A program made the translations under genes and the position numbers. Of a stretch of 64,000 nucleotides of DNA, positions 20,095-63,579 are shown piece by piece (position 1 is the stretch's first letter; every line of letters begins with the position of its first letter). Under the pieces are notes generated by a model. That model was not told where the DNA came from and did no database searches. It saw only the letters and a program-made list of their open reading frames with translations. The stretch is from a virus. The stretch is taken from the IMG/VR virus record IMGVR_UViG_3300033141_002688, positions 5,302 through 69,301 of that record. One strand, given 5' to 3'.

Positions 20095-20373
20095 CTATAT
20101 TGTTATTACATATGCTCCGTATAATGCTATAAAATAGTCTATTTTTGGATGCTCAATTCGTTTTCTTAAGATTAAACCTTTAATTATTCTAATATCCTCT
20201 TCAGAATGAGCGTGGTAAGAGTAAACCTGTGAATCACTCATATAAGTTACTGTAAAAAATTCTCTCTTGCCAATTTTTACTGGCCAAATTGTAACTCTCC
20301 TTCCTTCTCTTAAAATATTGCGTAAAGATTTACTTTTTTTCATCAAACACTGCAAATCTTCCAATTGCTTCAT
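20095..20373 (-). CDS. Small LRxKLE-motif protein (family B)
   Basis: IIKGLILRKRIEH. Confidence 0.6.
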   Translation of the reverse strand: MKQLEDLQCLMKKSKSLRNILREGRRVTIWPVKIGKREFFTVTYMSDSQVYSYHAHSEEDIRIIKGLILRKRIEHPKIDYFIALYGAYVITI

Positions 20374-20836
20374 ACACCTTCTTTACATATGATTTTGAAC
20401 CACCAACATATTTTAATAAAGCATTTTCCATATTATTGGTTCTACTATAATATAATTTAATTATTTTTGTGCCGTTGTCAATACCAATATCTACTTCGTG
20501 CAAGTCAAATCTACTTTTTATTCCCAGTTTTCTATTCCATATTGACCATCTAACTTGCATCAAGCCCCTTGCACCCTTTGAACTAACAGCCATAGGATTA
20601 AAACTTGATTCTACTTCTATCACTCCCAAGATAATCATATAGGGAATATCATATTTTTTGGATTTCTTGATTATTTCAATAGAAATTTCTCTAGTCAAGA
20701 CAGACGGAACTCTTCGATAATTTGCTTCTATATACTGTTCAATTTTACGAGATTGATCAGCATAAACTGGGACAGTAAAAGATAACAATGTAACTATTAA
20801 GATTACTCTTGAGAGCATATTGTCCAACCAAACCAT
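20330..20836 (-). CDS. Lytic transglycosylase (SLT domain) with N-terminal signal/anchor
   Basis: VESSFNPMAVSSKGARGLMQV, ALLKY; hydrophobic N-terminus. Confidence 0.9.
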   Translation of the reverse strand: MVWLDNMLSRVILIVTLLSFTVPVYADQSRKIEQYIEANYRRVPSVLTREISIEIIKKSKKYDIPYMIILGVIEVESSFNPMAVSSKGARGLMQVRWSIWNRKLGIKSRFDLHEVDIGIDNGTKIIKLYYSRTNNMENALLKYVGGSKSYVKKVYEAIGRFAVFDEKK

Positions 20837-21051
20837 TTCTTAGTTTTGTTCTCTAGTTGCTTCCTAAGTAAAAATCCTTTTATGATTTCTCTACCACCTT
20901 CACCAAAATCATCTATAAAGTAGAACTCTCCATCACGTATCATTATATAGTCTATATCCAAATTGACCCATATGGAAGGAGAACCTTCTAATGAAGTCTT
21001 TAGCATTTCCATGTTATATTTCACAAGTACCTCTTGTACACGACACATCAT
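20803..21051 (-). CDS. Small LRxKLE-motif protein (family B)
   Basis: IIKGFLLRKQLENK. Confidence 0.6.
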   Translation of the reverse strand: MMCRVQEVLVKYNMEMLKTSLEGSPSIWVNLDIDYIMIRDGEFYFIDDFGEGGREIIKGFLLRKQLENKTKKWFGWTICSQE

Positions 21052-22729
21052 CTTCGGAAAGAGATGATGTTGATTTACTTAATAATTTTTTAGCTTCTGA
21101 AAGTGAAAGTTTCTGTAATACCTGCCCCTCTCTTGAGCCATCAACATATACTGTTACACCCTTTAAGTCATAAGCGTACTCTAAGAGCCAATCAGATAAT
21201 TGAATTTTAGTTGTTCCTTTTGGAAAGTTAATTGTTTTTGACACTCCTCCATCCGTAAACCTTTGAAATGCCGTCTGAATTTCAAGATGATCCTTAGGAC
21301 TTAAATCTGAAGTATCTACTAACCAATCCGGTAATTTTTTATTCTGTTCAATACACTCTCTAACTAATGGATGAATATAGATTCTCTCACTAACCCTATC
21401 TTTTCTAATATAAGCCTTAGAAAATAATGGTTCAATAGAGGGGCATACCTCAGGAGTTACCAATAAACTTATTGTACCAGTTGGAGCAATTGCTTGAGCC
21501 GTTACGTTCCTAGTTCCATATCTTTTAATATCCCGTCTTAGAGTTGCTGGTAACTTTCTAACAAAAGATGCTTTTCCATAAGCATGAGAATCAAATGCTG
21601 GAAATGGCCCTTTTTCTCTTGATAACTTTATACTAGATTCATATACTTTATCCCTTATAAATCTAGCTAATCTTTCTGCTTCTGCTATTGATTTTTCCGA
21701 TCCATATTTTATCCCCTTCTTAAAAAGGAAATCTGCAAAGCCAATCACACCTATGCCGATTTTACGACCTTTTTTGGAATTTAATTCTATTTTTTGAACT
21801 GAGAAATTATTGACATCAATTACATTATCCAGAAACCTAACAATAATTTCTATACTATTTTCCAGTTTTTTCCAGTTTGTTTGAGTACCAGACAAGAAGT
21901 TTGGTAAAACTAAACTTCCTAAAATACATGATTCCCAAGGAGCTAAAATTGCTTCTCCACAAGGATTACTTGATATTGGTGGTGCAAAATAATAACCATT
22001 ATTCTTGGTTAGGTTAGTAAAATTGAGCAGACCTGGCTCACCACATTTTATCATATTAGATAATATTAGATTCCACAATTTTCTAGCAGGTTTTGAATGA
22101 GTCTCTTGTGCTAAAAATTTAAAAGTCCACAATTCATCTTCTTCTACAGCTTCCAAAAATTCATTTGTAATAGCTACAGATATATTATAGTGACTAATTA
22201 TCTTATCAACCAGTTTAGCGTTAATAAAATTTTCCACTTCTGGATGTTCTACTGAAACGCATACAAGTCCTGCTGCCCTGCGTGAACCCCCACTTTGAAT
22301 TGTAGAGGCAACTGAATCTGAAGCCTTTAAGAAGCTGACTAATCCAGTTGACTCACCCCCTTTTCCACGAATAGGGAATCCTTTTGGCCTAAGTGGTGAG
22401 AAATTGCACCCTACTCCCCCTCCCCCACTCCAACAAATAAGAGAATTCTTAATATAATCACCTATTTCCTCAATTGAGTCTCCAATAGGGATGACAAAAC
22501 AATTTGCCAGTTCTCCTTTTAATCTTCCAGCATTTCTAAGTATCCTTCCACCAGGGATAAAATTCATATCAAATATCTCTTGAGAAAAAATATTTGCCCA
22601 CTTATCTTTATCATTCTCATTTACTGCAATAGCATTTCCCACTCTATTACATAATTTCTCCCAATTTTCTCCTTCCATAAAATATCTAGCTTCAGCTATT
22701 TTTTGAGCATTTTCACTTAATTCTGTCAC
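21014..22729 (-). CDS. nrdJ: Class II (adenosylcobalamin-dependent) ribonucleotide reductase
   Basis: PGGRIL.NAG, NCFV, GGGVG, RRAA, NPCGE, APTGTIS, SKTINFP, GVTVYVDGSR and C-terminal Cys pair; no beta subunit nearby. Confidence 0.88.
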   Translation of the reverse strand: MTELSENAQKIAEARYFMEGENWEKLCNRVGNAIAVNENDKDKWANIFSQEIFDMNFIPGGRILRNAGRLKGELANCFVIPIGDSIEEIGDYIKNSLICWSGGGGVGCNFSPLRPKGFPIRGKGGESTGLVSFLKASDSVASTIQSGGSRRAAGLVCVSVEHPEVENFINAKLVDKIISHYNISVAITNEFLEAVEEDELWTFKFLAQETHSKPARKLWNLILSNMIKCGEPGLLNFTNLTKNNGYYFAPPISSNPCGEAILAPWESCILGSLVLPNFLSGTQTNWKKLENSIEIIVRFLDNVIDVNNFSVQKIELNSKKGRKIGIGVIGFADFLFKKGIKYGSEKSIAEAERLARFIRDKVYESSIKLSREKGPFPAFDSHAYGKASFVRKLPATLRRDIKRYGTRNVTAQAIAPTGTISLLVTPEVCPSIEPLFSKAYIRKDRVSERIYIHPLVRECIEQNKKLPDWLVDTSDLSPKDHLEIQTAFQRFTDGGVSKTINFPKGTTKIQLSDWLLEYAYDLKGVTVYVDGSREGQVLQKLSLSEAKKLLSKSTSSLSEDDVSCTRGTCEI

Positions 22730-22742
22730 TGTGATTCTCCTT

Positions 22743-23120
22743 TCATAGTCTATTCTCTAGTTTATCTCTTAATCGTTTAGCTTGCTCAAGCCTTTTTCTC
22801 TTTTTTCTATTGAAATATCTCAATACTAATAGAGTTATATAGATAATAATGGCTACACTCGTAGCTAACCATAAAAATGCCAAACCTATCCATATAACAA
22901 GACTTAGCCATAAATACATCCATATTTCTGAATCAAAGTCAACCCACCGACCACCTGGTATTTTCTTAATCACAAATAAAACTGGTGAATCTAAAGATTC
23001 TTTCTCGACTACAAATTTATACATATGATATATAGCCTGAGTGATCATCAGAATTATAATATAACCCCAACCTATCATTAAGAACCAACTAGCAATCTCT
23101 AAATATAATTTACCAGTCAT
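22743..23120 (-). CDS. Membrane protein with C-terminal LRxKLE tag
   Basis: Two to three hydrophobic segments; ends RLRDKLENRL. Confidence 0.6.
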   Translation of the reverse strand: MTGKLYLEIASWFLMIGWGYIIILMITQAIYHMYKFVVEKESLDSPVLFVIKKIPGGRWVDFDSEIWMYLWLSLVIWIGLAFLWLATSVAIIIYITLLVLRYFNRKKRKRLEQAKRLRDKLENRL

Positions 23121-23568
23121 AATGTTTATTCTCCAATTTAGCTCTTAAGTTTTGTACCATAAGAGATCTTGCTTCTTCTTCCGAAACTACATATATTTCA
23201 AATGAAGAGAATGCAGATCCACATGTTATTTTGTGACCATTGAGTGCAAATACTCTTAATAGACCACTCTTTGGTAAACAATCTATAGACCATCCAGATG
23301 GGGGGATTGCCTCTGGTACTGTACCATATTTTTTTAACCAGTTGAACCCATTTCCCCCAATACCATCTAAATGTAGTACATCGGACATTCCAGATAGTAA
23401 ACATTTTGGTTCATTTCCAACAACTGCAACAAAATCCATACAACGAAAACCAGAATCATGTTTACGTCTAGTTGGAAGTATTACTATAGAATCACAGATT
23501 ATCATATCATTTCGTTTTCTATAAGGTAAAGACTCAAAATCCTTGCGTGTCATATCTACTATATCCAT
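23110..23568 (-). CDS. Hypothetical protein with C-terminal LRxKLE tag
   Basis: HDSGFRCMDFV...SDVLHLDGIGG core; ends NLRAKLENKHYDW. Confidence 0.6.
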   Translation of the reverse strand: MDIVDMTRKDFESLPYRKRNDMIICDSIVILPTRRKHDSGFRCMDFVAVVGNEPKCLLSGMSDVLHLDGIGGNGFNWLKKYGTVPEAIPPSGWSIDCLPKSGLLRVFALNGHKITCGSAFSSFEIYVVSEEEARSLMVQNLRAKLENKHYDW

Positions 23569-32856: not shown

Positions 32857-33872
32857 TTTTCACCTCCTTGATAATACTCTGGATACTTATCAAATAAAAG
32901 CTCAGGGTGATCTTCCAGTAACTTCTCAACATTAAATTCATTATAAGATTTGTCTTTGTAAATCACAGTCTGTTGCCTAAACTTAGAAAACTCTTGCTTG
33001 TTTTTAGGTTTTAAATATCCCCGTTGTACCAAGAACCTGATATATCCACCATAATAAGGAATACCTTCTTTATAGAAAAATGGGATATAACATGTCCGAT
33101 AACATGGGCCTAATCTAGTCTTCTGAACTTCAATTCCTATCCAGTTTCCTACAACTTCACCTCCCTTCTTTGAATCCATAATTTTAAGTTTATCTTCCAA
33201 TGCAAACCTGTTAGTATTAAAATATCTCAACCCTTCTCCCCCTGCAACTCTCTTTGGATCACCAAACATCTGTCCAACATTATAATAAAAATGATTTGCA
33301 ATTAATAACATTACTTTTTTATCAATTATTGGAAAGAGCTTTCTGAGACCATCCTTAATTGATTTAGCACGTCTACCACTATCTGATTTATCAAGATCAA
33401 CATCCTTATCAAATGCCTGAATAGAATCTATAATACCAACAATATAAGTGTCCCCATCTTCTTTCCTAATTAAGTTTATAGTATCTATAAGGAAATTGAA
33501 TGCATCAACTACCAATGGAGTATCTTGTGGGCCAACTTTAATCATCTTATCAGTATCTATACCAAGTTCGGTTGCACGTTTATTCGTAAGAGCACTCTCT
33601 CTATCCACTATAACACCAACAGCATCATACTTTTTCTGAGCATTCGCTAGAATCTGCTGAACAAAAAGACTCTTCCCACTCTGTGAAAATCCAACAAACT
33701 CAGTCATAACCCCAAATGGAATTCCACCTTCACTTATCAAATCAAATGTCAGATTACCGGTGGATACGAAATCGGATGGATCTTCGCTTTCTGATACTAC
33801 ATTGACATCCTTATACTTTTGCTTTAACTGGTTAACAACCTTGGTTATATCCATCAGTACATTCTCCATCAT
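32853..33872 (-). CDS. recA: RecA/UvsX-like recombinase
   Basis: VSTGNLTFDLI.GGIP.G..TEFVG.SQSGKS, D.E.AL, IDSI, GGEGLRYF. Confidence 0.9.
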   Translation of the reverse strand: MMENVLMDITKVVNQLKQKYKDVNVVSESEDPSDFVSTGNLTFDLISEGGIPFGVMTEFVGFSQSGKSLFVQQILANAQKKYDAVGVIVDRESALTNKRATELGIDTDKMIKVGPQDTPLVVDAFNFLIDTINLIRKEDGDTYIVGIIDSIQAFDKDVDLDKSDSGRRAKSIKDGLRKLFPIIDKKVMLLIANHFYYNVGQMFGDPKRVAGGEGLRYFNTNRFALEDKLKIMDSKKGGEVVGNWIGIEVQKTRLGPCYRTCYIPFFYKEGIPYYGGYIRFLVQRGYLKPKNKQEFSKFRQQTVIYKDKSYNEFNVEKLLEDHPELLFDKYPEYYQGGEK

Positions 33873-34239
33873 ATCTATCTTCTAGTTTATCTCTTAGTTG
33901 TTTTGCTAATCGTTGTCTAATACTCTTGTATGACTCATAGGAATGCAACAGGTGTTCAAGATTCCACAATGAGAAGTATAGAGAAATAATAACCCAGGAA
34001 AGGGTAGAGATACCAAGAAAAAGTATACCATAATTTTTAGATTTAACAAAACAACTAATTGATAATGTTAATAAAGCAATAAATATAATCATAAATCCAA
34101 TACCACATAATGAATGAATAACATCATGCCTTAGCTGATCTTTCATAGTATCCAAATGGTTTTTCTCCCATTCAGTCTCAGCAGTAAGAACCAAATTAGG
34201 TCTTTTAATATGAAGTCTAGCATTCGGTGAAATAGTCAT
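33832..34239 (-). CDS. Two-TM membrane protein with C-terminal LRxKLE tag
   Basis: Two hydrophobic helices; AKQLRDKLEDR. Confidence 0.6.
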   Translation of the reverse strand: MTISPNARLHIKRPNLVLTAETEWEKNHLDTMKDQLRHDVIHSLCGIGFMIIFIALLTLSISCFVKSKNYGILFLGISTLSWVIISLYFSLWNLEHLLHSYESYKSIRQRLAKQLRDKLEDRYDGECTDGYNQGC

Positions 34240-35738: not shown

Positions 35739-35766
35739 ATTATAATCCTTTTTCATTTTTTGTCAA
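35739..35766 (-). promoter_or_regulatory. Sigma70-type promoter TTGACA-N16-TATAAT
   Basis: Minus strand TTGACA aaaaatgaaaaaggat TATAAT. Confidence 0.7.
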
Positions 35767-36109
35767 TATTATATTTTTTAAAAATGTTCAAACATTCGTT
35801 CCTAACATACACTTTTTTCCTATTATAGAGTGTGTAATATCTTTGTTTTGGCGAATAACCTAATAAAGTCAACATTTTACTCTTTGTCAAATTTGGCAGG
35901 TAAGATTTATAATATTTAAACAATTTATTAACCTCTTCAGGAAGAATATATACATAGGTAGTTTTATCTAAATACCTTACTAGTGATTCTAAGACATCCT
36001 TATTCAACAAGATTAAAGTTTTTCTGCCAATAGTCTTTAATCCTTCAAGTTTCATCCTCAACAATATAACATCCCTGTATTTTTTTAAATCTTCGACTGT
36101 ATAGTTCAT
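35753..36109 (-). CDS. LRxKLE family A protein
   Basis: MNYTVEDLKKYRDVILLRMKLEG...YYKSYLPNLTK..L.LLGYS. Confidence 0.7.
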   Translation of the reverse strand: MNYTVEDLKKYRDVILLRMKLEGLKTIGRKTLILLNKDVLESLVRYLDKTTYVYILPEEVNKLFKYYKSYLPNLTKSKMLTLLGYSPKQRYYTLYNRKKVYVRNECLNIFKKYNIDKK

Positions 36110-38907: not shown

Positions 38908-39189
38908 TCAGTCATATAATTCTCTCAACGATTTATTAAAATATTTCATTTCAAGAAATAAATCAAACTCAACATCAGATTTATACATCCACTTCCTACC
39001 ATATAAATTTCTCTTACTCTCTATCTTATTTCTCAATATAAATCCTTCTATAATTCGCAATTCCTTATCTGATAAATTTTCTAATATATAATATTCAAAA
39101 TCATATATAAGAGATATAAAGTAAATTTCATCTCTCAAATAATGAATCCATATAGCTTCACTCTTTTCCAAAATCTTACTTAATTCCAT
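38908..39189 (-). CDS. LRxKLE family B protein
   Basis: NLSDKELRIIEGFILRNKIES. Confidence 0.65.
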   Translation of the reverse strand: MELSKILEKSEAIWIHYLRDEIYFISLIYDFEYYILENLSDKELRIIEGFILRNKIESKRNLYGRKWMYKSDVEFDLFLEMKYFNKSLRELYD

Positions 39190-39497
39190 TTTATCTCTAT
39201 AATAGAAAGAGATTGACTTACTTTTTCCAAAAGATTATCTAAATAATTTTTATTTTTCTGATACCAATACCAGTGACTAATTTTAAACCTACCTTTTCCT
39301 TCTATTTTCATTCGCAATAACCATCCTTTAATAATTTTTATTTCTTCTTCAGATAGATTCCTAAACATATATAAAGAGTGGTAATTTGTCTTTCCATTTC
39401 TTACTCTTATAGTAACACTATAAATCTCATTATCTAAAAAGTCAATATATAATGCTGAGGAATTTTCCTTTAAAAATTTAATTAATTCTTTTCTCAT
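39180..39497 (-). CDS. LRxKLE family B protein
   Basis: NLSEEEIKIIKGWLLRMKIEG. Confidence 0.65.
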   Translation of the reverse strand: MRKELIKFLKENSSALYIDFLDNEIYSVTIRVRNGKTNYHSLYMFRNLSEEEIKIIKGWLLRMKIEGKGRFKISHWYWYQKNKNYLDNLLEKVSQSLSIIEIKWN

Positions 39498-39765
39498 AGC
39501 CTTCCGACCTAAAAGTATCAGAACTTCTCCCTCTCTTTTTAATAATACAAATCACTCTTTGGTTATTTTCAAGTCTATCCCTTAGAAGAAAACCATTAAT
39601 AAATGCTAATTCTTTTTTCGAAAATTTACCATTTAATTTGTATTTTTGCAAAAAGCTATCTTCAACTGTAAAGAATCTAACATATTCTAATCTACCTTTT
39701 GTATTAATTGATAAATGTACTCTAATTGCATCATCCAACTTTTTCAACTTATCTATTCTTTTCAT
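39478..39765 (-). CDS. LRxKLE family B protein
   Basis: FSKKELAFINGFLLRDRLEN. Confidence 0.65.
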   Translation of the reverse strand: MKRIDKLKKLDDAIRVHLSINTKGRLEYVRFFTVEDSFLQKYKLNGKFSKKELAFINGFLLRDRLENNQRVICIIKKRGRSSDTFRSEGYEKRIN

Positions 39766-39767
39766 AC

Positions 39768-43697: not shown

Positions 43698-44044
43698 TCA
43701 AGTTTTCTCCTTAATTCTACACCTAATTCTTTTCTTTTTATTATATGATGTGCTAAAAGTAGAATCACCTTCTGCATTAACATTTTATAACCTTCAGAAG
43801 AGAAATCATGGAGACTGGAAAATACAAAATTGTCATCTTTTGAAAAAAGAGTACTTTCGGAAAAATCAAACTGTAAATATAAATATGGAAGATCAACATA
43901 TAATATGTCCCATTTAATATTGTAAGACCTACATAATTCTTTAAATATCATGTCTAAATCATCTTCAGGCAGACTATCAAATGGAGATAGAATATCATCT
44001 TTCAATCTATATAAATCATCTAATTTATCAAGGTTGTATTTCAT
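43685..44044 (-). CDS. Hypothetical protein with C-terminal LRxKLE tag
   Basis: Ends GVELRRKLEWKK. Confidence 0.55.
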   Translation of the reverse strand: MKYNLDKLDDLYRLKDDILSPFDSLPEDDLDMIFKELCRSYNIKWDILYVDLPYLYLQFDFSESTLFSKDDNFVFSSLHDFSSEGYKMLMQKVILLLAHHIIKRKELGVELRRKLEWKK

Positions 44045-44291
44045 ATAAACCCAAGTTTTTTATTAGTTCTTTTCTAGTTAAATTTGGTAAATAAGATTTA
44101 TAATATATGAATAGGAAATCAATCTCCAAAGAATATAATAATGGTGGTGTCTTTTTCAATAAAACATTTTCTATTTCTACAGGAGAAAAAAAGAAATGGC
44201 GTTTTGAGAAGATATTCTCTAACCGCATCCTTAATAAAACTGCATCCCTATATCTTGTTAAGTCATTTAAAGTATAATTATATTTCTTCAT
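44028..44291 (-). CDS. LRxKLE family A protein
   Basis: YTLNDLTRYRDAVLLRMRLEN...YYKSYLPNLTRKELIKNLG. Confidence 0.7.
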   Translation of the reverse strand: MKKYNYTLNDLTRYRDAVLLRMRLENIFSKRHFFFSPVEIENVLLKKTPPLLYSLEIDFLFIYYKSYLPNLTRKELIKNLGLYEIQP

Positions 44292-45564: not shown

Positions 45565-45756
45565 TTACTTTTCAAATTCCTTTCTAAACTCCTCTTGTAT
45601 TTCATAATATTTTTTATTTTCCAATTTCATTCTCAGAATAAATCCTTTAAGTTGTTCTTTAGTTATTTCTTGAGAAGTAGGGAATTGATAAGAGTCATTT
45701 CCAATATTGAATAATATATATTTCTCATCAAAATCTATTGGAATATTACGAGTCAT
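45565..45756 (-). CDS. LRxKLE family B protein (minimal, 63 aa)
   Basis: ITKEQLKGFILRMKLENK. Confidence 0.6.
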   Translation of the reverse strand: MTRNIPIDFDEKYILFNIGNDSYQFPTSQEITKEQLKGFILRMKLENKKYYEIQEEFRKEFEK

Positions 45757-45930: not shown

Positions 45931-46239
45931 TTAACCTCCTTGCTTTCTAGCATAAACTTTTCTATCTATAGATCTGTCTATGGATAATTTGGTGGAATAC
46001 CCTAATAAATTTAATAACTTCTTTCTATTTAGTTTTGGTAAGTAAGATTTATAATATTTATATAGTATCTTGATTTCTTCAGGGAAAAGAAATCCCATGG
46101 GCTTTTCTGGATATTTAAGCGTACGTTCTATGAAATCTATATTTATTGAGGGATTCTTTTGACGTTCTAATCCTTCAAGTTTCATCCTCAATAGTATAAC
46201 ATCTTTATATTTTCTTAAATCTTCGATTACGTAATTCAT
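45931..46239 (-). CDS. LRxKLE family A protein
   Basis: MNYVIEDLRKYKDVILLRMKLEG...YYKSYLPKLNRKKLLNLLGYS. Confidence 0.7.
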   Translation of the reverse strand: MNYVIEDLRKYKDVILLRMKLEGLERQKNPSINIDFIERTLKYPEKPMGFLFPEEIKILYKYYKSYLPKLNRKKLLNLLGYSTKLSIDRSIDRKVYARKQGG

Positions 46240-46702
46240 TCAGATTTGTATATTTGGGACTTAATCTAGATCTATCCATATACCTATGTCTTAAGTAATT
46301 CTCTCTTAACTTTGATTCTGTTTTATATCTTTCTCTTTTAGGATATAGAATCTCTTCAGGCAATCCTAAAGATTTATTCTCTAATTTAGACCTTAATAAA
46401 TATCCTTGTAATTCTTTTCCTAGTTTACTATTTTTCTTTATTTTTCTATACTTAAAGGCTTTTTCTGAATCTGTAGCAATACTCATAGCGTTGAATGTTT
46501 CCAACTGTCTTAGAAAGAATCTCATACAATTGATACAGATGTTTTCATATCGTGGTTTCTTAAATTCGGTTCCTTGATTACCTACAAAGTATATAAAACC
46601 TCTCCAACCATTTAGCATTGACAGATGGTATTCGTGTGGAAAAATTTTATTACCACAATAGTGACATTTTCTAGTTCGTTTTGCTTTACATAGACTAAGC
46701 AT
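46205..46702 (-). CDS. Zinc-finger protein carrying the LRxKLE motif
   Basis: CHYC...CINC; ELQGYLLRSKLENK. Confidence 0.6.
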   Translation of the reverse strand: MLSLCKAKRTRKCHYCGNKIFPHEYHLSMLNGWRGFIYFVGNQGTEFKKPRYENICINCMRFFLRQLETFNAMSIATDSEKAFKYRKIKKNSKLGKELQGYLLRSKLENKSLGLPEEILYPKRERYKTESKLRENYLRHRYMDRSRLSPKYTNLNELRNRRFKKI

Positions 46703-46904
46703 AGACTCTTACCTTTCCTTCCAATTTCTTTCTTAAAATTATACCATCTAGTTTCTTTTTGATTCTACCAAATTTAGGGATTCTTTCTATCACATGATGC
46801 ATTGTTTCATTACTAGTATTGACTTGCCAAACTATATAATTAATAGTAGGATCAATAAATACTCTACTTGAATCTTCAATCTGTCTTAAATCATTATCAT
46901 TCAT
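46695..46904 (-). CDS. LRxKLE family B protein
   Basis: KLDGIILRKKLEGK. Confidence 0.6.
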   Translation of the reverse strand: MNDNDLRQIEDSSRVFIDPTINYIVWQVNTSNETMHHVIERIPKFGRIKKKLDGIILRKKLEGKVRVYA

Positions 46905-48454: not shown

Positions 48455-48482
48455 AATATAATCATCGTAGTTTATTTGTCAA
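48455..48482 (-). promoter_or_regulatory. Sigma70-type promoter TTGACA-N16-TATATT upstream of a non-coding hairpin region
   Basis: TTGACA aataaactacgatgat TATATT. Confidence 0.6.
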
Positions 48483-49162
48483 GAGTTGCATACTATTTTA
48501 AATCCTCTTTCTGTTTTCAATAGATAAAAGTGAAAATATGTTGATATTTTTGAATATTTGCTAATAGTCTGAGAATCTGCCTGGAATTTTTGTTTAATAA
48601 ATCTTTGAAGATAACGAGAATATTCAGTATGAGTAAGTGGCCATAGACGTTTTGAATTATCTATAAGTCTATTATTTCCTCTTTTCTTTCTTATACTATT
48701 GTACTCTTTAAATATTCGTGCTAACATTGTTTTACTCAGTCTTGGTAAATGAGTCTTATAACTTTTTATTACTATATCAGGAATTGCTGAATAATCCCAA
48801 TAGGTATATTTTGTTGGATCTTGAAGAAAGTTAATAATCACTTCATTCTCTTTTAATTTTGGAGATAACTGATAGTTTAGGAGTGCAACTTTTCTATACT
48901 TCATTATATCAGTCATTGTATAATCTTTTCTCTTTTTCTTTGGTACGTAAGCTGACATCTTCTGATAGCAGTTTGAGCATTTTATAAACTTCTTTGGAGG
49001 ATTCCATCGGCATAATTTATAGTAAGCTTCTCCCTTCTCAATTCTCTCTTTACATACATCGCAATAAATTTCTTCTGATCCTCCCCAATTAATTCTATAA
49101 CTATACCCCATCTTATTTCTCCTTAATATATTTTGATTACTTCTCCAAATGGAGTTTTCCAA
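48479..49162 (-). CDS. Zinc-finger protein fused to a degenerate family A domain
   Basis: CDVC...CSNC, then DYTMTDIMKYRKVALL...SYKTHLPRLSK; likely start at MGYSY (~49111). Confidence 0.55.
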   Translation of the reverse strand: MENSIWRSNQNILRRNKMGYSYRINWGGSEEIYCDVCKERIEKGEAYYKLCRWNPPKKFIKCSNCYQKMSAYVPKKKRKDYTMTDIMKYRKVALLNYQLSPKLKENEVIINFLQDPTKYTYWDYSAIPDIVIKSYKTHLPRLSKTMLARIFKEYNSIRKKRGNNRLIDNSKRLWPLTHTEYSRYLQRFIKQKFQADSQTISKYSKISTYFHFYLLKTERGFKIVCNS

Positions 49163-50265: not shown

Positions 50266-50345
50266 ATCAAGTCTATAGAGAATTGTTGCATAAAAGGAAA
50301 GAACAGAATCTAAGATTAAAGAAGATTTAGCTTTTTGAATTTTAT

Positions 50346-50684
50346 CTAAATCCTTATTTCTCTAAAGTATACGATGTGATGATTATCAAATAATCTAATA
50401 GTTTTAGTGGAAAATCCCAATGATTTCAATAGCTTAGTCTTAGTTAATTTAGGTAAATGTGGTTTATAACACTTCAATAGAAAGTCTACTTCCCAAGTAT
50501 AAAGATAACTAATATCACAACTTTCAGGTTCCCATATAATATCCTTAATCATTTCACTAGGGAGTCTTAGTTTACCACCATATTCATGGTATCCTTTGAA
50601 ATTTTCAAGTTTGAGTCTCAAAAGTATAGCTTCTCTACATCTTTTTAAATCTTTTATAGTATATCTAATTATATTTCGGTGCAT
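50346..50684 (-). CDS. LRxKLE family A protein; close paralogue of 63259-63579
   Basis: YTIKDLKRCREAILLRLKLENFKG...LLKCYKPHLPKLTKT. Confidence 0.7.
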   Translation of the reverse strand: MHRNIIRYTIKDLKRCREAILLRLKLENFKGYHEYGGKLRLPSEMIKDIIWEPESCDISYLYTWEVDFLLKCYKPHLPKLTKTKLLKSLGFSTKTIRLFDNHHIVYFREIRI

Positions 50685-51895: not shown

Positions 51896-52135
51896 TTAAT
51901 CACCAGAACAGTTTAGTAGTTTAAGTAATTCCTTTTTAGTTAAATGAGTTAAGTATGGTTTGTAATAGTTGAATAGTAAATTCAGTTCATCCTTATATAG
52001 AGATCTCCAAAGGTCATGTGCTTCTGATGGATATTTAATAATTAATTTTATTACTTTACTATTATTATTTTCTAATTTCATTTTTAGCAATATAATATCT
52101 TTATACTTTTCTAAATCTTTAATAGTGTAATTCAT
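51896..52135 (-). CDS. LRxKLE family A protein
   Basis: MNYTIKDLEKYKDIILLKMKLEN...YYKPYLTHLTKKELLKLL. Confidence 0.7.
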   Translation of the reverse strand: MNYTIKDLEKYKDIILLKMKLENNNSKVIKLIIKYPSEAHDLWRSLYKDELNLLFNYYKPYLTHLTKKELLKLLNCSGD

Positions 52136-52704
52136 TCCATTTTTGCTCCTTTTGGAATAGGTTTATCACCATAATTCTTAATTTTAATCCAATCAATAGA
52201 TGATCCATCCCAATATTTTGAGTTTGAGTTCCTGATAACCAATCCTTCCCATCCTTCACTGAAGATTCTATTTTTCAATATTAAAAGATCTCTTTCATTT
52301 TCAATTATCCAATTAGGAACTACTGACAGGTATTTAGTTTGTGGATCAATCTGGTTGAGTATTTCAAATATTTTGAAGGGAGATTCATTACTGTAATCTT
52401 TATTTTCTAATAATATAATATTCCATAGTCTCAATTTCAAGTTATCAGAGCATTTATTTCTCAATAATCCATAAAAATCTTTGTAGGTTCTACCATCTTT
52501 ATAAATCAGTTCACCTAGATAAATGCCATCTGGTAATCTTCGCCTAGCAATTTCAGTAATAGGGCATTCAATTCTTATTCTACCATATTTTGGTTTGTTT
52601 ATTAGTAAGGCTTTGGTGTTTTTCACGATTAGATATTCCATTTCACCGTTGTATCTGAACTTTAATACAGGCATTTTGAAAGATTTATCCATTTTGTATT
52701 TCAT
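52132..52704 (-). CDS. ATP-dependent DNA ligase-like nucleotidyltransferase domain (degenerate motif I, no OB domain)
   Basis: RYNGE in place of KxDG; GELI, LWNII, GWEGLVIR...Y, WIKIK. Confidence 0.65.
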   Translation of the reverse strand: MKYKMDKSFKMPVLKFRYNGEMEYLIVKNTKALLINKPKYGRIRIECPITEIARRRLPDGIYLGELIYKDGRTYKDFYGLLRNKCSDNLKLRLWNIILLENKDYSNESPFKIFEILNQIDPQTKYLSVVPNWIIENERDLLILKNRIFSEGWEGLVIRNSNSKYWDGSSIDWIKIKNYGDKPIPKGAKME

Positions 52705-52988
52705 TTTATCTCCTTCGCTCTTTTTGATTTTAGGTCTTTTTCTATTATACTGTTTGCACGACCTTTATTTGACCAATTAAAAGATTCAATTGTAGGTTTC
52801 TTATTTTCAAGCTTCATTCTAAATAGCCATCCTTTAATATATCTTTTTTCTTCTCTGGTTAAATTCCTAATAATATAGAAATTTTCTTTATGGTCTATAC
52901 ATATATTATACATCTTATGGTTTGAATAATCAATAATTATACTAGAATCAGGGAGATCTAGTAATTCTTTAAGTTTGTTTATTCTCAT
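52701..52988 (-). CDS. LRxKLE family B protein
   Basis: NLTREEKRYIKGWLFRMKLENK. Confidence 0.65.
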   Translation of the reverse strand: MRINKLKELLDLPDSSIIIDYSNHKMYNICIDHKENFYIIRNLTREEKRYIKGWLFRMKLENKKPTIESFNWSNKGRANSIIEKDLKSKRAKEIK

Positions 52989-53178
52989 ATGTTAAATTTT
53001 TCCCTTCCAATTGCTTTCTCAAAATGAAAATTTTGATAATTTTTTTGTAGTCAAAACTTAAATTAATTATTATTGGGATGCTGTATTCCTTATTATAGCA
53101 TTTTATCTCTATAAAATCATTGTTAAATACTATCTGCAGTTTATCATATTTCTCTAAAACATTTATTATTTTTCTCAT
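52969..53178 (-). CDS. LRxKLE family B protein
   Basis: KKIIKIFILRKQLEGK. Confidence 0.6.
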   Translation of the reverse strand: MRKIINVLEKYDKLQIVFNNDFIEIKCYNKEYSIPIIINLSFDYKKIIKIFILRKQLEGKNLTYENKQT

Positions 53179-54103: not shown

Positions 54104-54628
54104 TTAACCTCCATTAATTGATTCTTCGATTTTTCTTCTGAGATATTGACCTTGAATCTTTTTGCCTTCTTCTGAATTCGGATCAATTTTCTTTATTCTC
54201 ATGTATTCTTGGGGGTTGTTATATTTAGTTATACCTTTGATTTTCAAATAGAGATTAGGATAAACATCTTGAAGAAGTGGGGTGTCACAAGTACCATTAT
54301 TAAGGTCTATTATCATATTATCCTTGAAAAGCCATAAAGTTATAGGATGTGATCTTTTTTGGACTATCCATACATCATAAAATTGAAATACAGAATAATT
54401 AAGAGGCAGAAAAGTACTAATTCTCTCTTTTGTAGTAGAAGTTTTTCGACCACCACTATTCAATATTATTTTATTGTCAGGTAAGTATTTAATTATATCT
54501 GTATAATAATATCTAATTACTCTTTCTTTTTTGGAGTTCCAGTATTCTACTGTATTATTTCTAACAGTGAATCTGCTTTTTTGGATATCATCAATTCCTT
54601 TCAATATCTCAGATTTCTTAAGTCTCAT
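54104..54628 (-). CDS. Conserved phage early protein with C-terminal LRxKLE tag
   Basis: YYTDII...IILNSGG.KT.TTKERI; ends KIQGQYLRRKIEE. Confidence 0.6.
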   Translation of the reverse strand: MRLKKSEILKGIDDIQKSRFTVRNNTVEYWNSKKERVIRYYYTDIIKYLPDNKIILNSGGRKTSTTKERISTFLPLNYSVFQFYDVWIVQKRSHPITLWLFKDNMIIDLNNGTCDTPLLQDVYPNLYLKIKGITKYNNPQEYMRIKKIDPNSEEGKKIQGQYLRRKIEESINGG

Positions 54629-60669: not shown

Positions 60670-61061
60670 ATGAAACTAATTGAAAAGCAAGCTTTGCTGG
60701 TGTTTTGACACTGAAAGACTCAATTAACATAGTGAGAAGCTCTTCCCCTTTTAGATTTAACAGTGAGCAGAGGAGAGCACTAGTGAATGAAATTAAAATG
60801 AAATTCGATATGTTTAGGAGAACCAAAACGAAACTTAACACACTTGAAGATTTAAATAAGGTTAATTTAAATGATTTCAACTCAGTTGTTATATTTTATT
60901 ATTCTGATGTTATATGCATATATTTCACAGGAACTCATTCAAAAGATATAGTGTTTTGCCATTCAGATACTTCTCTTAATGGATTCATTTTAAGATGTAG
61001 ATTACAGAATATCAATGTTTCTGAATTATTAATTGCAACTAGACTATTTCGGAATCAATAA
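60670..61061 (+). CDS. LRxKLE family B protein; probable start 60670 with a homopolymer frameshift at ~60704
   Basis: SLNGFILRCRLQN; paralogous to 62167-62421. Confidence 0.6.
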
Positions 61062-61934: not shown

Positions 61935-62174
61935 ATGATGAAACTTAGAGATGTACTGGAGTGTTTTAGTTTTATAACTGCTAGCGAGGAATACCTAGAT
62001 TCAGATTTGAAAAGATTAGAAATATCAAGAAATTTTATTGCGATGGTAGTGGATTATCATGGTTGTAGACATATCCCCTTTTATATGTACACTCCGTGCA
62101 ATTTTAGCAACAAAACAAAGGCATTCATTTTAAGATGTCAATTAGAAGGAATTAAAGTTATTTGGCATGAGTAG
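61935..62174 (+). CDS. LRxKLE family B protein
   Basis: KTKAFILRCQLEG. Confidence 0.6.
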   Translation: MMKLRDVLECFSFITASEEYLDSDLKRLEISRNFIAMVVDYHGCRHIPFYMYTPCNFSNKTKAFILRCQLEGIKVIWHE

Positions 62175-62421
62175 AGAAGAAATGAAATTTAATAAGAAGA
62201 AATATTTGAATAAAATCAATTTGACCAATCTTAGATCAGTTATTGTTCATTATTATTTGAGATCAACATCTATGTACCTTTATACTGATAATGATATTAT
62301 ATATTTCATCCTTAAGCCTTCTGATAATGTTGATGGATTTCTACTTAGATGTAGACTACAAAATATAATCGTTGATGAGAGAGTAATTGATCCATCTTTC
62401 TGTGAAGGAGGTATAACATGA
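62167..62421 (+). CDS. LRxKLE family B protein
   Basis: NVDGFLLRCRLQN. Confidence 0.6.
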   Translation: MSREEMKFNKKKYLNKINLTNLRSVIVHYYLRSTSMYLYTDNDIIYFILKPSDNVDGFLLRCRLQNIIVDERVIDPSFCEGGIT

Positions 62422-62663
62422 CTTTAGAAATTGAAGAAGAACTTGATATAGATGAAGTTTGGAAGAATACTCCATATGATACTAGATTAGCTTGCACTGC
62501 ATATGTATTTAAGAAAATATGTGAACATGCTAGGGGAGGTGGTACTTATAGATATTTGATATATGACAGACTTGGATTTGACATGGATGCATATGCGGTA
62601 TTACTGGTAAATGGTGGGATGGATATTAGTAATGAGTTTAAACTAAAGAAAAGGAGGACATAA
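62418..62663 (+). CDS. Conserved phage hypothetical protein (G.YRYLIYD.LGF..DAY family)
   Basis: GGTYRYLIYDRLGFDMDAY...GGMDISN. Confidence 0.65.
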   Translation: MTLEIEEELDIDEVWKNTPYDTRLACTAYVFKKICEHARGGGTYRYLIYDRLGFDMDAYAVLLVNGGMDISNEFKLKKRRT

Positions 62664-62665
62664 AA

Positions 62666-63259
62666 ATGAAAAAAATACTTTTGATTATATTAGCACTTTT
62701 GTTTGCATTTAGCAGTTTGGCTTTTGCTGGTGGGGCAACTAAGCCGGAACAGAAACCACCCTATGTTCCTATAGAACACCAATCTTCACATATTCCTGAG
62801 ATAGTTTACATTGCCATTCGAGAAGTGCACTATGATGGAGGTGTAGAAGGCGTTATACACTCAACATTTGAAGAGTTAGTGAATTGTTGGACATCTGAAG
62901 GAAGTTTCTGCCCCCCTGTAGTTTTGGGAGAAGCAGCTATATTTAAGGCGTATAGAATGAGTTTTAGAGTAGAAAAACATCATGGGAATATAATAAATAA
63001 AGTGTGGACTGTAGATTCTTTTACTCCTGCTCCTCTAGTTCTGCGAGTGGAGGAAATAAGGGGTGCTTATTATGATGATATGTTGTGTGAATTTTCAGGT
63101 ACTGTTATAAAAATGGAAGAGATGAGTAACCAGATTTACTATCACTTTCTTGAAGCTCCACTTGAGTACACTCTAAAGAGAATAAAAGTGAGAAGCAGGA
63201 TGGTAGAAAGGTGTACAAAGAAGACCAAGCAGCTAGAATGGTTTGTAATTGATGAATAA
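62666..63259 (+). CDS. Exported/periplasmic hypothetical protein
   Basis: Sec signal peptide MKKILLIILALLFAFSSLAFA. Confidence 0.65.
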   Translation: MKKILLIILALLFAFSSLAFAGGATKPEQKPPYVPIEHQSSHIPEIVYIAIREVHYDGGVEGVIHSTFEELVNCWTSEGSFCPPVVLGEAAIFKAYRMSFRVEKHHGNIINKVWTVDSFTPAPLVLRVEEIRGAYYDDMLCEFSGTVIKMEEMSNQIYYHFLEAPLEYTLKRIKVRSRMVERCTKKTKQLEWFVIDE

Positions 63260-63579
63260 TGAATTATACTATAAAAGATTTAAAAAGATGTAGAGAAGCT
63301 ATACTTTTGAGACTCAAACTTGAGAATTTCAAAGGTTATTATGGTCAATTTGGTAAACCAAGGTTATCTAGTAATGTAGTAAAGGATATTATATGGGAAC
63401 CTGAAGGTTGGGGTATTGGTTATCTTTATACTTGGGAAGTAGATTTTTTATTAAAATGTTATAAACCACATCTACCAAAACTGACCAAGACTGAGTTATT
63501 GAAATTATTAGGATTTTCTACTAGAACTACTAGATTTGCTAATCATTATAATGTTTATCTTGAAAAGCGAGATGATTAG
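63259..63579 (+). CDS. LRxKLE family A protein; close paralogue of 50346-50684
   Basis: MNYTIKDLKRCREAILLRLKLENFKG...LLKCYKPHLPKLTKT. Confidence 0.75.
   Translation: MNYTIKDLKRCREAILLRLKLENFKGYYGQFGKPRLSSNVVKDIIWEPEGWGIGYLYTWEVDFLLKCYKPHLPKLTKTELLKLLGFSTRTTRFANHYNVYLEKRDD

What the first reader, a model, noticed from the sequence alone, without database searches (positions are those of the whole stretch)
20095..63579. About 26 small phage proteins share one LRxKLE peptide motif: candidate docking/targeting system
Seen, by ORF low coordinate: 20095 GLILRKRIEH, 20803 GFLLRKQLEN, 22743 RLRDKLEN, 23110 NLRAKLEN, 33832 QLRDKLED, 35753 ILLRMKLEG, 38908 GFILRNKIES, 39180 GWLLRMKIEG, 39478 GFLLRDRLEN, 39768 GWLLRQKLEN, 40085 GFVLRNKLEN, 43685 ELRRKLEW, 44028 VLLRMRLEN, 45565 GFILRMKLEN, 45931 ILLRMKLEG, 46205 GYLLRSKLEN, 46695 GIILRKKLEG, 50346 ILLRLKLEN, 51896 ILLKMKLEN, 52701 GWLFRMKLEN, 52969 IFILRKQLEG, 54104 GQYLRRKIEE, 60705 GFILRCRLQN, 61935 AFILRCQLEG, 62167 GFLLRCRLQN, 63259 ILLRLKLEN. 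It occurs N-terminally (family A), sub-terminally (family B) and as a C-terminal tag on unrelated membrane, zinc-finger and conserved phage proteins, on both strands and with varied codons. I did not see it in the tail or core replication proteins. Inference: a short amphipathic helix binding one common hub (a phage scaffold or capsid-loading factor, the MoxR/vWA chaperone, or a host target such as RNA polymerase or a protease), giving a plug-in adaptor/effector system. I know of no description of this motif.
Basis: partly seen in the sequence, partly recalled or inferred. Interest (0 to 1): 0.92.

Follow-up and report, generated by a model that had tools for sequence, protein, structure and literature searches.

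The report
Shared helix motif on phage proteins
About a fifth of the genes of this uncultivated phage encode small proteins that share one short helix ending in L-R-x-K-L-E, which looks like a portable contact piece for a partner that is still unknown.

Summary
All 26 ORFs carry the quoted peptides. The loose motif occurs 27 times in 123 ORFs of the 69.3-kb contig, against 1.4 in residue shuffles. It is about 26 times rarer per residue in 80 other phage loci. Codons vary, so selection acts on the protein.

The motif is the last turn of an 18-20-residue capped helix. Sixteen carriers fall into two orphan paralogue families: A with 6 members and B with 10. Both are confined to this phage lineage. 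The other ten share only the helix with them.

Six carriers outside the families still exceed chance (P about 1e-6), and five of them carry the motif 3-15 residues from the C-terminus. For g23110, 22 of 23 aligned homologues end before the tail.

So a portable module is supported, but no hub is identified. The MoxR/vWA idea gained no support. My best reading is a shared protein-contact helix (0.42). The rivals are structural conservation plus fusion remnants, and a processing signal.

This scan has noted similar shared tags, with other peptides, in other phages.

The parts
35753..36109 (-). Family A member (118 aa). Motif LRMKLE at residues 17-22 (DNA 36061-36044).
   Evidence: AF2 model: the motif is the C-terminal end of helix 12-22.
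44028..44291 (-). Family A member (87 aa). Motif LRMRLE at residues 20-25.
45931..46239 (-). Family A member (102 aa). Motif LRMKLE at residues 17-22.
50346..50684 (-). Family A member (112 aa). Motif LRLKLE at residues 22-27. It lies between the MoxR-like ATPase gene and the DUF2201 vWA gene.
51896..52135 (-). Family A member (79 aa). Motif variant LKMKLE at residues 17-22.
63259..63579 (+). Family A member (106 aa). Motif LRLKLE at residues 17-22. 75% identical to the product of 50346-50684.
48479..49162 (-). Zinc-ribbon protein with an internal family-A domain. Its motif is degenerate (LLNYQLS): the domain is kept and the motif is lost.
20095..20373 (-). Family B core member (92 aa). LRKRIE at residues 69-74.
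20803..21051 (-). Family B core member (82 aa). LRKQLE at residues 62-67.
38908..39189 (-). Family B core member (93 aa), first gene of the tandem array next to the PolA gene. LRNKIE at residues 52-57.
39180..39497 (-). Family B core member (105 aa), in the array. LRMKIE at residues 61-66. This is the protein that was modelled.
   Evidence: AF2: helix 50-66 ends with the motif.
39478..39765 (-). Family B core member (95 aa), in the array. LRDRLE at residues 61-66.
39768..40088 (-). Family B core member (106 aa), in the array. LRQKLE at residues 61-66.
40085..40408 (-). Family B core member (107 aa), in the array. LRNKLE at residues 66-71.
45565..45756 (-). Family B core member (63 aa). LRMKLE at residues 41-46.
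52701..52988 (-). Family B core member (95 aa). Variant FRMKLE at residues 56-61.
52969..53178 (-). Family B core member (69 aa). LRKQLE at residues 53-58.
46695..46904 (-). Small protein (69 aa) with the module near its C-terminus (LRKKLE at residues 57-62). It has a B-like layout, but family membership is not demonstrable once the module is masked.
60705..61061 (+). Small protein (118 aa from a TTG start). Variant LRCRLQ at residues 96-101. Related to the product of 62167-62421. B membership is unproven.
61935..62174 (+). Small protein (79 aa). LRCQLE at residues 66-71. B membership is unproven.
62167..62421 (+). Small protein (84 aa). LRCRLQ at residues 60-65. Related to the product of 60705-61061.
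22743..23120 (-). Hydrophobic (membrane-like) protein (125 aa). Its basic C-terminal tail ends ...RLRDKLENRL, with the motif at residues 117-122.
33832..34239 (-). Hydrophobic (membrane-like) protein (135 aa). Tail motif LRDKLE at residues 115-120. Its C-terminal 50 aa are weakly similar to those of the 22743-23120 product.
23110..23568 (-). Member of a widespread uncharacterised phage family. Only here (and in the 95% relative) does it carry a roughly 25-aa C-terminal extension SEEEARSLMVQNLRAKLENKHYDW.
43685..44044 (-). Acidic protein (119 aa) upstream of the primase-helicase gene. It ends ...ELRRKLEWKK. The LRR codons also contain the AGGAGA ribosome-binding site of the next gene.
46205..46702 (-). 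Cys-rich (zinc-ribbon-like) protein (165 aa). Module LQGYLLRSKLENK at residues 98-110, followed by a 57-aa basic tail.
54104..54628 (-). Protein (174 aa) with an N-terminal domain of the Kyano_Gp96 / PHROG 554 type (residues 16-103). Its C-terminal extension ends with the module (LRRKIE at residues 163-168).

Best explanation
L-R-x-K-L-E-[N/G] is the last turn and cap of a portable helix of 18-20 residues. The helix usually opens with an S/T-x-E/D-E cap and has a small residue (G, A or V) three positions before the Leu.

In this phage lineage the helix occurs in three settings:
1. It is the best-conserved element of two orphan small-protein families found only in this lineage. Family A has 6 members, with the helix N-terminal to a helical domain that ends in a beta-hairpin. 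Family B has 10 members, with the helix after a helix plus three-strand sheet. Family B is changing fast between near relatives.
2. It is the only detectable similarity to four further small proteins.
3. It has been added as a C-terminal extension to about six otherwise unrelated proteins.

I infer that the conserved face (small residue, Leu, Leu, flanked by Arg/Glu and Lys) is a protein-protein contact. Through it, about 26 proteins of the early/replication region would engage one common partner, or one another. The bodies attached to the helix supply the varying functions.

What is shown: the enrichment, selection at the protein level, the helix context, restriction to this lineage, and that the helix is an addition in g23110 and g54104.

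What is inferred: that the module binds anything, and what it binds.
For: - Enrichment: 27 of 123 ORFs carry the loose motif, against 1.43 in shuffles. The rate is 1.22 per 1000 aa here and 0.047 per 1000 aa in 80 other phage loci.
- Outside families A and B: 6 strict hits in 102 proteins, against 0.165 in shuffles or 0.33 from real phage background (Poisson P = 1.4e-6). Five of the six lie 3-15 residues from the C-terminus.
- Added tail in g23110: 412 homologue clusters exist. In an alignment of 24 of them (the window protein plus 23), only the window protein and its 95% relative carry the tail. The other 22 end just after the SSFEIY core.
- Added tail in g54104: the Pfam and PHROG profiles cover residues 16-103 of 174.
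- No other similarity between groups: hhalign of A against B aligns only 17 columns over the motif. With the module removed or masked, profiles of A and of B find none of the tag carriers and none of the four loose small proteins.
- Helix context: the motif ends a confident helix and is followed by a low-confidence stretch in both AF2 models. In B the helix is 50-66 and in A it is 12-22.
- The charged residues are not needed for the A fold: the 48479-49162 product keeps the A domain but reads LLNYQLS in place of the motif.
- Stronger conservation than the rest of the protein: in 17 non-identical pairs with near relatives, the 10-residue core is identical at 140 of 150 positions and the rest at 976 of 1170 (Fisher p = 0.0011).
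- Stability in close variants: 10 variants of four tag carriers (at least 90% identical) have 1-14 changes each, none of them in LRxKLE.
- Protein-level selection: synonymous codons vary, and no DNA identity longer than 17 nt links tags to families.
Against: - No partner was found. The single complex job gave no verdict.
- In families A and B the helix belongs to a folded domain with pLDDT of about 87-94. Its conservation there could be purely structural.
- Sixteen of the 26 carriers are explained by descent within two families.
- Some tag carriers are related to each other over the tail. The 22743 and 33832 products match at E = 0.001, and the 46205 and 54104 products at E = 0.002. The number of independent grafts may therefore be as low as four.
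- The variants share ancestry, so the conservation statistics overstate independence.
- No relative beyond this narrow lineage carries the module, so there is no comparative test of function.
Confidence: 0.42

Rival explanations
1. Structural conservation plus fusion remnants. On this reading the helix is just a stable, well-capped structural element of expanded paralogue families. The C-terminal copies on other proteins are left-overs of in-frame deletions or recombination with the many dispersed family genes. There is no common reader.
For: - The helix is confidently packed in both models.
- Sixteen of the 26 carriers are paralogues.
- The family B array gains, loses and breaks copies between phages whose PolA is 98% identical: one extra paralogue and one frameshifted copy. 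Rearrangement around these genes is therefore frequent.
- The tail helix of g23110 has the same cap-to-cap length (19 residues) and the same SEEE start as helix 2 of family B.
Against: - Five of the six non-family copies keep only the helix and sit at the extreme C-terminus.
- They keep R, K and E, which the 48479-49162 product shows are dispensable for the A fold.
- There is no DNA trace of recent recombination; the longest shared DNA is 16-17 nt, inside the motif.
- LRxKLE is unchanged in all 10 close variants of the tags.
Confidence: 0.27
2. Processing or turnover signal. On this reading a protease cuts after the Glu, at the helix end and before N/G, or an unfoldase recognises the helix. 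Cutting would remove the N-terminal leader of family A and the variable C-terminal tails of family B and of the tagged proteins. Candidate readers are the phage's HExxH metallopeptidase-vWA protein (49123-50265) with its MoxR-like ATPase (50665-51762), or a prohead protease, as with the T4 capsid targeting sequence.
For: - In both models the motif ends exactly where a helix stops and a low-confidence stretch begins.
- The sequence after the motif varies greatly in length, from 3 to 57 residues outside family A.
- Three family-A-type genes interleave with the MoxR-like and DUF2201 genes.
- H90, E91 and H94 of the DUF2201 family, which I read as an HExxH site, are nearly invariant in 40 aligned sequences.
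- Passages of Kaur et al. 2020 (PMC7159879, sections 8 and 24) propose that vWA domains capture a substrate peptide. They also describe a zincin-like peptidase paired with small, fast-diverging proteins that carry a conserved peptide.
- T4 internal proteins share only a capsid targeting sequence (PMC3012670, section 6, passage).
Against: - The motif does not travel with DUF2201: in 80 viral loci with homologues, none of 2005 ORFs hits the module, A or B profiles, and the motif is at background rate.
- Two carriers have Gln at the Glu position.
- The T4 prohead protease site, as I recall it, is (L/I)-x-E. Here the position two before Glu is Lys, Arg or Gln.
- The head module is not on this contig, so no prohead protease can be examined.
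Confidence: 0.17
3. Nucleic-acid-binding helix. On this reading the basic R/K face contacts DNA or RNA, and the carriers are a set of small regulators.
For: - Family A has a helix-rich domain with a beta-hairpin. Its best, non-significant Foldseek rows are Fur/PerR winged-helix domains (E = 0.2-0.7).
- The protein-language-model neighbours of family A include HTH families, at scores below 0.9.
Against: - An invariant Glu and two Leu make a poor nucleic-acid contact surface.
- The motif helix is not the predicted recognition-helix region of family A.
- Membrane proteins also carry the motif, on their tails.
- No fold match is significant.
Confidence: 0.08
4. A signal in the nucleic acid itself (a ribosome-binding site, promoter or regulatory RNA site) that merely happens to translate as LRxKLE.
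For: - For 9 of the 26 carriers the motif ends 0-26 nt before the next start codon.
- In the 43685-44044 gene the LRR codons read TTAAGGAGA, a good ribosome-binding site for the primase-helicase gene. In the 23110-23568 gene the LE codons contain GGAG, 9 nt before the next ATG.
Against: - For 16 of the 26 the motif lies 57-339 nt from the next start, and one has no downstream gene in the set.
- Every Leu position uses 7 different codons and Glu uses both of its codons.
- The same peptide occurs on both strands.
Confidence: 0.02

Closest known systems
Capsid targeting sequence (CTS) of phage T4 internal proteins
   Same: One short conserved peptide is the only thing shared by a diverse set of phage proteins, several of which act against host defence (PMC3012670, section 6, passage read). 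Family A carries the module at its N-terminus, as the T4 proteins carry the CTS.
   Different: As I recall, the T4 CTS is N-terminal, about 10 residues long, and removed by the prohead protease. Here 20 of the 26 copies are internal or C-terminal. The module is a full 18-20-residue helix of folded domains. Nothing shows packaging or cleavage, and the head genes are not on this contig.
Peptide-processing systems coupled to vWA-MoxR conflict systems (Kaur, Burroughs, Iyer, Aravind 2020, PMC7159879)
   Same: A MoxR-type ATPase, a vWA protein and a zincin-like peptidase are encoded among small, fast-diverging proteins that keep one conserved peptide (sections 8 and 24, passages read; for the phage genes).
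   Different: In those systems the conserved peptide is at the extreme C-terminus (FxSxx, RxD, acidic types) of one precursor per system, in bacteria. Here the peptidase and vWA are fused in one DUF2201 protein that is common in phages without the motif. There are about 26 carriers, and the peptide is a helix inside or at the end of folded proteins.
Lineage-specific shared tags on small phage proteins noted earlier in this scan (e1-5468011, e1-5658787, e1-831089 and others)
   Same: A large share of the small genes near the replication module of an uncultivated phage carry one short peptide whose reader is unknown (these are AI notes and I did not check them).
   Different: Those are other peptides in other phages, mostly true terminal tails. 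Here most copies are the core helix of two paralogue families, and only about six are terminal additions.
Tandem arrays of diversifying small accessory genes in phage early regions (recalled as a general pattern, not from a call)
   Same: Family B forms a five-gene array beside the PolA gene. It differs in copy number, and by one broken copy, between phages whose PolA is 98% identical. One orthologue is only 69% identical.
   Different: Such arrays are not known to me to share a fixed helix with unrelated proteins of the same genome.

Membership tests
T4-type capsid targeting sequence | A short peptide at the extreme N-terminus of the carrier | tested here: not met
   Only the 6 family A members have the module N-terminal (motif at residues 17-27). 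The other 20 carry it internally or at the C-terminus.
T4-type capsid targeting sequence | Removal by the prohead protease and packaging of the carrier into the head | not testable with these tools
   This needs virion and terminomic mass spectrometry. The contig holds tail genes but no recognisable head module.
vWA-MoxR-coupled peptide-processing system (Kaur et al. 2020) | A MoxR AAA+ ATPase, a vWA protein and a zincin-like metallopeptidase encoded together | tested here: met
The 49123-50265 product has DUF2201_N (putative metallopeptidase) plus a VWA-like domain. H90, E91 and H94 are nearly invariant in 40 sequences.
vWA-MoxR-coupled peptide-processing system (Kaur et al. 2020) | A conserved peptide at the extreme C-terminus of a small variable precursor, released by the peptidase | tested here: inconclusive
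   Five carriers have the motif 3-15 residues from the C-terminus, but most have it internal or N-terminal. Cleavage cannot be tested here.
vWA-MoxR-coupled peptide-processing system (Kaur et al. 2020) | Co-occurrence of the peptide carriers with the enzyme genes across genomes | tested here: not met
   Across 80 viral loci with DUF2201 homologues (2005 ORFs), there is no hit to the module, A or B profiles at E <= 0.01. The motif rate is 0.047 per 1000 aa, against 1.22 here.
Single paralogous family (all carriers being one fold) | Detectable similarity outside the motif helix among all carriers | tested here: not met
   BLASTP gives separate clusters. hhalign of A against B aligns 17 columns only, with probability 4%. 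Profiles of A and B without the helix find no tag carrier. With the module masked, a profile of the 10 core B members fails to find the 46695, 60705, 61935 and 62167 products or any tag carrier.
Winged-helix / HTH DNA-binding proteins (for family A) | A significant sequence or fold match to an HTH family | tested here: inconclusive
   Pfam, PHROGs and NCBIfam have no family at threshold. The best Foldseek E is 0.23 (PerR/Fur). The best VIA-align Z is 3.8. The Atlas HTH leads score below 0.9.
IQ-type calmodulin-binding helix (a lead from the PDB sequence search) | A significant match to the IQ consensus | tested here: inconclusive
   The family B profile matches the myosin V IQ2-IQ3 peptide at E = 0.69 over 21 residues. 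This is not significant and I do not use it.

The most novel reading that the evidence does not exclude
This phage lineage runs an address-label system of its own. One reader protein, from the phage or the host, recognises the LRxKLE-capped helix. New clients would be recruited simply by grafting on the 19-residue helix.
Probability: 0.25. Interest if true: 0.8.

Novelty: new variant of a known kind. Interest (0 to 1): 0.55.

Why it matters
Short peptides that address many different proteins to one partner are well understood in eukaryotic cells. In phages they are known in only a few cases, such as the T4 capsid targeting sequence and clamp-binding tails.

Here about 12% of the coding capacity of a phage contig carries one helix. 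That is 26 proteins, 2,640 of 22,105 residues by my sum of the lengths. There is direct comparative evidence that the helix was added to a conserved protein that lacks it everywhere else.

If a reader exists, it would reveal how this phage organises its early proteins. It would also give a 19-residue handle for recruiting cargo. Together with similar tags seen elsewhere in this scan, it would point to a common but undescribed way of organising phage proteomes.

If no reader exists, the case still shows how a single helix can spread through a phage genome by paralogue expansion and fusion.

Tried and rejected
Ribosome-binding-site or other nucleic-acid signal: rejected as a general cause. Only 9 of 26 motifs lie within 26 nt of the next start, and the codons vary.

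Chance in K/L/E-rich ORFs: rejected.

Known families: Pfam, PHROGs, NCBIfam and PADLOC gave no family at threshold for 10 representative carriers. For tag carriers there were only weak or partial hits.

Fold searches. None is significant, so the folds stay unassigned, which is not evidence that they are new.
- Foldseek against PDB had no row at E <= 0.001 for B or A.
- VIA-align wide gave a best Z of 4.8 for B (ribosomal eL38, FtsH N-domain type) and 3.8 for A.
- BFVD gave nothing for B.
- The PDB sequence search gave an IQ peptide at E = 0.69 and a PH domain at E = 0.82 for B, and VPS28 at E = 0.12 for A.
- The ESM Atlas gave no usable hit for B and only leads below 0.9 for A.

Relatives:
- The family A profile against 5.8 billion proteins found 8 clusters, all near-copies of window genes.
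- The family B profile against 1.84 billion representatives found 14, all near-copies.
- A viral-contig scan with A found none.
- tblastn against the phage collection found no match for g23110, g46205 or g43685. For g54104 it found two Caulobacter phages covering residues 3-82 only.
- The nearest PolA in named phages is 25-27% identical.
- A 45%-identical PolA relative (L005) has no motif gene in the 2.1 kb upstream.

Complex prediction: I folded the DUF2201 protein (a relative's 416-aa form, P0143, with a 40-row alignment), the MoxR-like ATPase (no alignment) and family A as the partner. The tool's verdict was no answer: the score was 0.35, but the control with chain 1 replaced scored 0.43. 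I count this neither for nor against binding.

Literature:
- A full-text search for the strings LRxKLE, LLRxKLE, LRXKLEN, LRMKLE, LRKKLE and LRNKLE found 3 papers, all irrelevant from their listings.
- A search for 'short linear motif', 'bacteriophage', 'paralogous' and 'small proteins' listed nothing relevant (listing only).
- So I found no description of this motif in the held library. Subscription journals are not covered.
- I did not ask for supplements. Those of Kaur et al. may list DUF2201-type systems that I could not see.

I considered the T4 (L/I)-x-E protease site, FtsZ C-terminal peptide mimicry, MinD-type membrane-targeting helices and sigma region 4.1 likeness from memory only. 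None fitted well enough to pursue. The hydrophobic residues are spread around the helix, so it is not a clean amphipathic membrane helix.

Full report
WHAT IS THERE. The window is bases 5302-69301 of a single 69,301-bp contig. G+C is about 27-47% and the coding strand switches near 13.6 kb and 60 kb.

The + strand block at 1-13.6 kb encodes tail proteins: two J-like central fibre proteins and a 1877-aa protein.

The long - strand block encodes these functions:
- a family-A DNA polymerase with an N-terminal UDG-like domain and a 3'-5' exonuclease (36410-38824)
- a primase-helicase (42018-43697)
- a RepO-like protein and an SNF2 helicase
- RecA and SbcCD-like proteins
- ribonucleotide reductase and dCMP deaminase
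- an RNA ligase and an MT-A70 methylase
- a lytic transglycosylase
- an ATPase (50665-51762) next to a DUF2201 protein that joins a putative metallopeptidase domain to a VWA-like domain (49123-50265)

The polymerase is only 25-27% identical to the nearest named phages, which are SPO1-like Bacillus phages. The lineage is therefore poorly sampled. No head genes are on the contig. Database clusters show that identical proteins also lie on a 118,320-bp contig.

THE OBSERVATION. I called 123 ORFs greedily on the whole contig.

Counts against 1000 residue shuffles:
- Loose pattern [LF][RK].[KRQ][LI][EQ]: 27 ORFs, against a shuffle mean of 1.43 (max 6).
- LR.[KR][LI]E: 19, against 0.23.
- LR.KLE: 13, against 0.07.
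- The one extra loose hit, FRNRIE in the methylase, is at the level chance predicts.

Counts in real phage proteomes:
- 20 loci (71,009 aa) have 10 loose and 0 strict hits.
- 80 loci (364,257 aa) have 17 loose and 6 strict hits.
- The contig therefore carries the loose motif about 26 times, and the strict motif about 54 times, more densely than other phages.

A 21-residue profile built from the 26 copies finds only those 26 in all six frames of the contig. The weakest copy scores 16.4 bits and the best non-copy 7.8 bits. This check is circular by construction, but it shows a clean gap.

Synonymous codons vary freely: seven codons at each Leu position, and GAA 15 against GAG 9 for Glu. The longest DNA identity that links different contexts is 16-17 nt, inside the motif. 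Selection is therefore on the protein.

WHAT THE MOTIF BELONGS TO. When the copies are aligned on the motif, the similarity extends upstream to a unit of 18-20 residues. The unit has an S/T cap followed by acidic residues, then a hydrophobic pattern, then a small residue (G in most B copies, A or V in A) three positions before the Leu. It ends in L-R-x-K-L-E and an N or G cap.

AlphaFold models built on the family alignments place the motif at the very end of a helix that is followed by a low-confidence stretch:
- Family B member 39180-39497: mean pLDDT 76.8. Helix 3-10, strands 13-21, 24-33 and 40-46, then helix 50-66 with the motif at 61-66. The blocks after residue 70 have pLDDT 62-65.
- Family A member 35753-36109: mean pLDDT 82.9. 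Helices 5-10 and 12-22 with the motif at 17-22. A loop follows with pLDDT below 50 at 29-33, then three helices, a beta-hairpin and a last helix.

HOW MANY INDEPENDENT CONTEXTS. BLASTP gives these groups:
- Family A: 6 members, plus an internal domain of the zinc-ribbon protein 48479-49162.
- Family B: 10 members.
- A pair, 60705 and 62167.
- Weak tail-only matches between the two membrane-like proteins (22743 and 33832, E = 0.001) and between 46205 and 54104 (E = 0.002).

I first aligned 14 proteins as family B. With the module masked, however, a profile of the 10 core members' N-terminal parts does not find 46695, 60705, 61935 or 62167 (E = 3.7 or worse). Their membership is therefore unproven, and the helix is the only demonstrable link.

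A and B share only 17 aligned columns over the motif (hhalign probability 4%). Profiles of A without its N-terminal helix and of B without its helix find none of the six tag carriers.

The refutation condition 'all carriers are full-length paralogues of one fold' is therefore not met. Even so, 16 of the 26 are explained by descent within two families. The number of unrelated contexts is about 8-10.

THE TAGS. Outside the families, 6 of 102 proteins carry the strict motif. Shuffles give 0.165 (max 2 in 2000) and real phage background gives 0.33 (Poisson P = 1.4e-6). In five of the six the motif lies 3-15 residues from the C-terminus.

The clearest case is 23110-23568. It belongs to a widespread uncharacterised family of 412 clusters at E <= 0.001. 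I aligned 24 of them, the window protein plus 23 chosen across the list. Only the window protein and its 95% relative carry the 25-residue tail. The other 22 stop just after the conserved SSFEIY core. The tail, SEEEARSLMVQNLRAKLEN, has the same length and the same SEEE start as helix 2 of family B.

For 54104-54628, the Pfam and PHROG profiles (110 and 109 positions) cover residues 16-103 of 174, and two Caulobacter phages match residues 3-82 only. Here too the module sits on an extension. For 43685, 46205 and the two membrane-like proteins I found no outside relatives, so 'added' is not shown for them.

CONSTRAINT.
- The A-type domain of 48479-49162 keeps the conserved Y/K/L positions of the family but reads LLNYQLS where the others read LLRMKLEN. 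The Arg, Lys and Glu are therefore not needed for that fold.
- In 17 non-identical pairs between window proteins and their nearest database relatives, the 10-residue core is identical at 140 of 150 positions and the rest at 976 of 1170 (Fisher p = 0.0011). The most diverged pairs show it best: 9/10 against 24/58, 9/10 against 49/95, and 9/10 against 54/88. One pair has 5/10, with conservative changes.
- Ten close variants of four tag carriers have 1-14 changes each and none in LRxKLE.
- These sequences share ancestry, so the numbers are indicative only.

DYNAMICS. A metagenomic fragment whose PolA is 98% identical (L003) differs in the family B array:
- It has an extra family B paralogue, 60% identical to 38908.
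- One orthologue is only 69% identical.
- One copy is frameshifted.
- The other array members are 95-96% identical.

Both families are confined to near relatives of this phage. The searches found 8 clusters for A in 5.8 billion proteins and 14 for B in 1.84 billion representatives, all near-copies of window genes. Family B therefore behaves like a fast-turning accessory set built around a fixed helix.

MECHANISM. I commit to a protein-contact helix (0.42). On a helical wheel drawn by hand, the two invariant Leu and the small residue lie on one face, flanked by Arg/Glu on one side and Lys on the other. The aromatic and aliphatic residues before them face elsewhere and can pack on the domain's own sheet. 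That fits a helix with one face for its own domain and one for a partner, but I could not inspect model coordinates.

No partner is identified. Three A-type genes interleave with those two genes. Kaur et al. propose that vWA domains capture substrate peptides, and they describe zincin peptidases paired with small diverging proteins that keep a conserved peptide (PMC7159879, passages). Against it, the DUF2201 family is common in phages (1161 proteins at E <= 1e-10), and none of 80 loci with a homologue has the module.

The same facts also fit a processing signal at the helix end (0.17). They fit plain structural conservation with fusion remnants as well (0.27). A nucleic-acid-binding role (0.08) and a DNA/RNA-level signal (0.02) are less likely.

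COMPARISON AND NOVELTY. The nearest described principle is the T4 capsid targeting sequence. It is the only element shared by a diverse set of internal proteins (PMC3012670, section 6, passage). The position rule is not met here, and cleavage and packaging are untestable.

The vWA-MoxR peptide-processing systems share the cast of enzymes, but not the peptide's position or its co-occurrence with the enzymes.

I found no description of the motif in the held library. Earlier notes of this scan report similar shared tags, with other peptides, in other uncultivated phages. I did not check those notes, and they do not raise or lower this score.

I class this finding as a new variant of a known kind. 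The families are new and the helix is shown to be portable, but its function is not shown.

VERDICT.
- Observation: confirmed.
- Interest: 0.55.
- Boldest reading not excluded: a lineage-specific address-label system with one reader, probability about 0.25.

Noticed in passing
window 50266-50400 (upstream of the DUF2201 gene 49123-50265): The database form of this protein (P0143, 416 aa) starts MKEISSKDLDKIQ.... In the window the same conserved 30-odd residues are in frame but are preceded by a stop, with no ATG, GTG or TTG before the Met of the 380-aa ORF. This copy is either N-terminally shortened or uses an unusual start.
   Followed up: partly
window 3944-5227 (+) and 40412-42055 (-): Two HNH homing-endonuclease paralogues are up to 54% identical, with internal repeats, and match PHROG 559. 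One sits between two tail genes. The other sits between the family B array and the primase-helicase gene. They are the only parts of the 7.9-kb query (36410-44300) with DNA similarity to named phages, namely the Hef-like genes of Campylobacter phages.
   Followed up: partly
L003 1-1556, against window 38908-40088: A relative whose PolA is 98% identical has an extra family B paralogue between the orthologues of 39180 and 38908. It also has a frameshifted orthologue of 39478 and a 69%-identical orthologue of 39768.
   Followed up: yes
window 50346-50684 (-) and 63259-63579 (+): These two family A genes have patchy DNA identity. It is 90-98% over the first 90 aligned columns (the module), 60% over the next 45 (the loop after the motif), and 75-91% after that. 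The cause may be a recent duplication with a fast-changing loop, or partial gene conversion.
   Followed up: partly
window 23110-23568 (-): The body of this protein belongs to a large uncharacterised family (412 clusters). Its invariant residues (H37, D38, S39, D45, S62, D63, W93, D96, C97) suggest an enzyme or a metal site. It matches no Pfam, PHROG or NCBIfam model.
   Followed up: partly
window 36410-38824 (-): The family-A DNA polymerase has a uracil-DNA-glycosylase-superfamily domain fused at residues 37-180, ahead of the 3'-5' exonuclease. Many metagenomic relatives match only this N-terminal part.
   Followed up: no
It fits the chance expectation of about 1.4 hits and has no module context.
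   Followed up: yes
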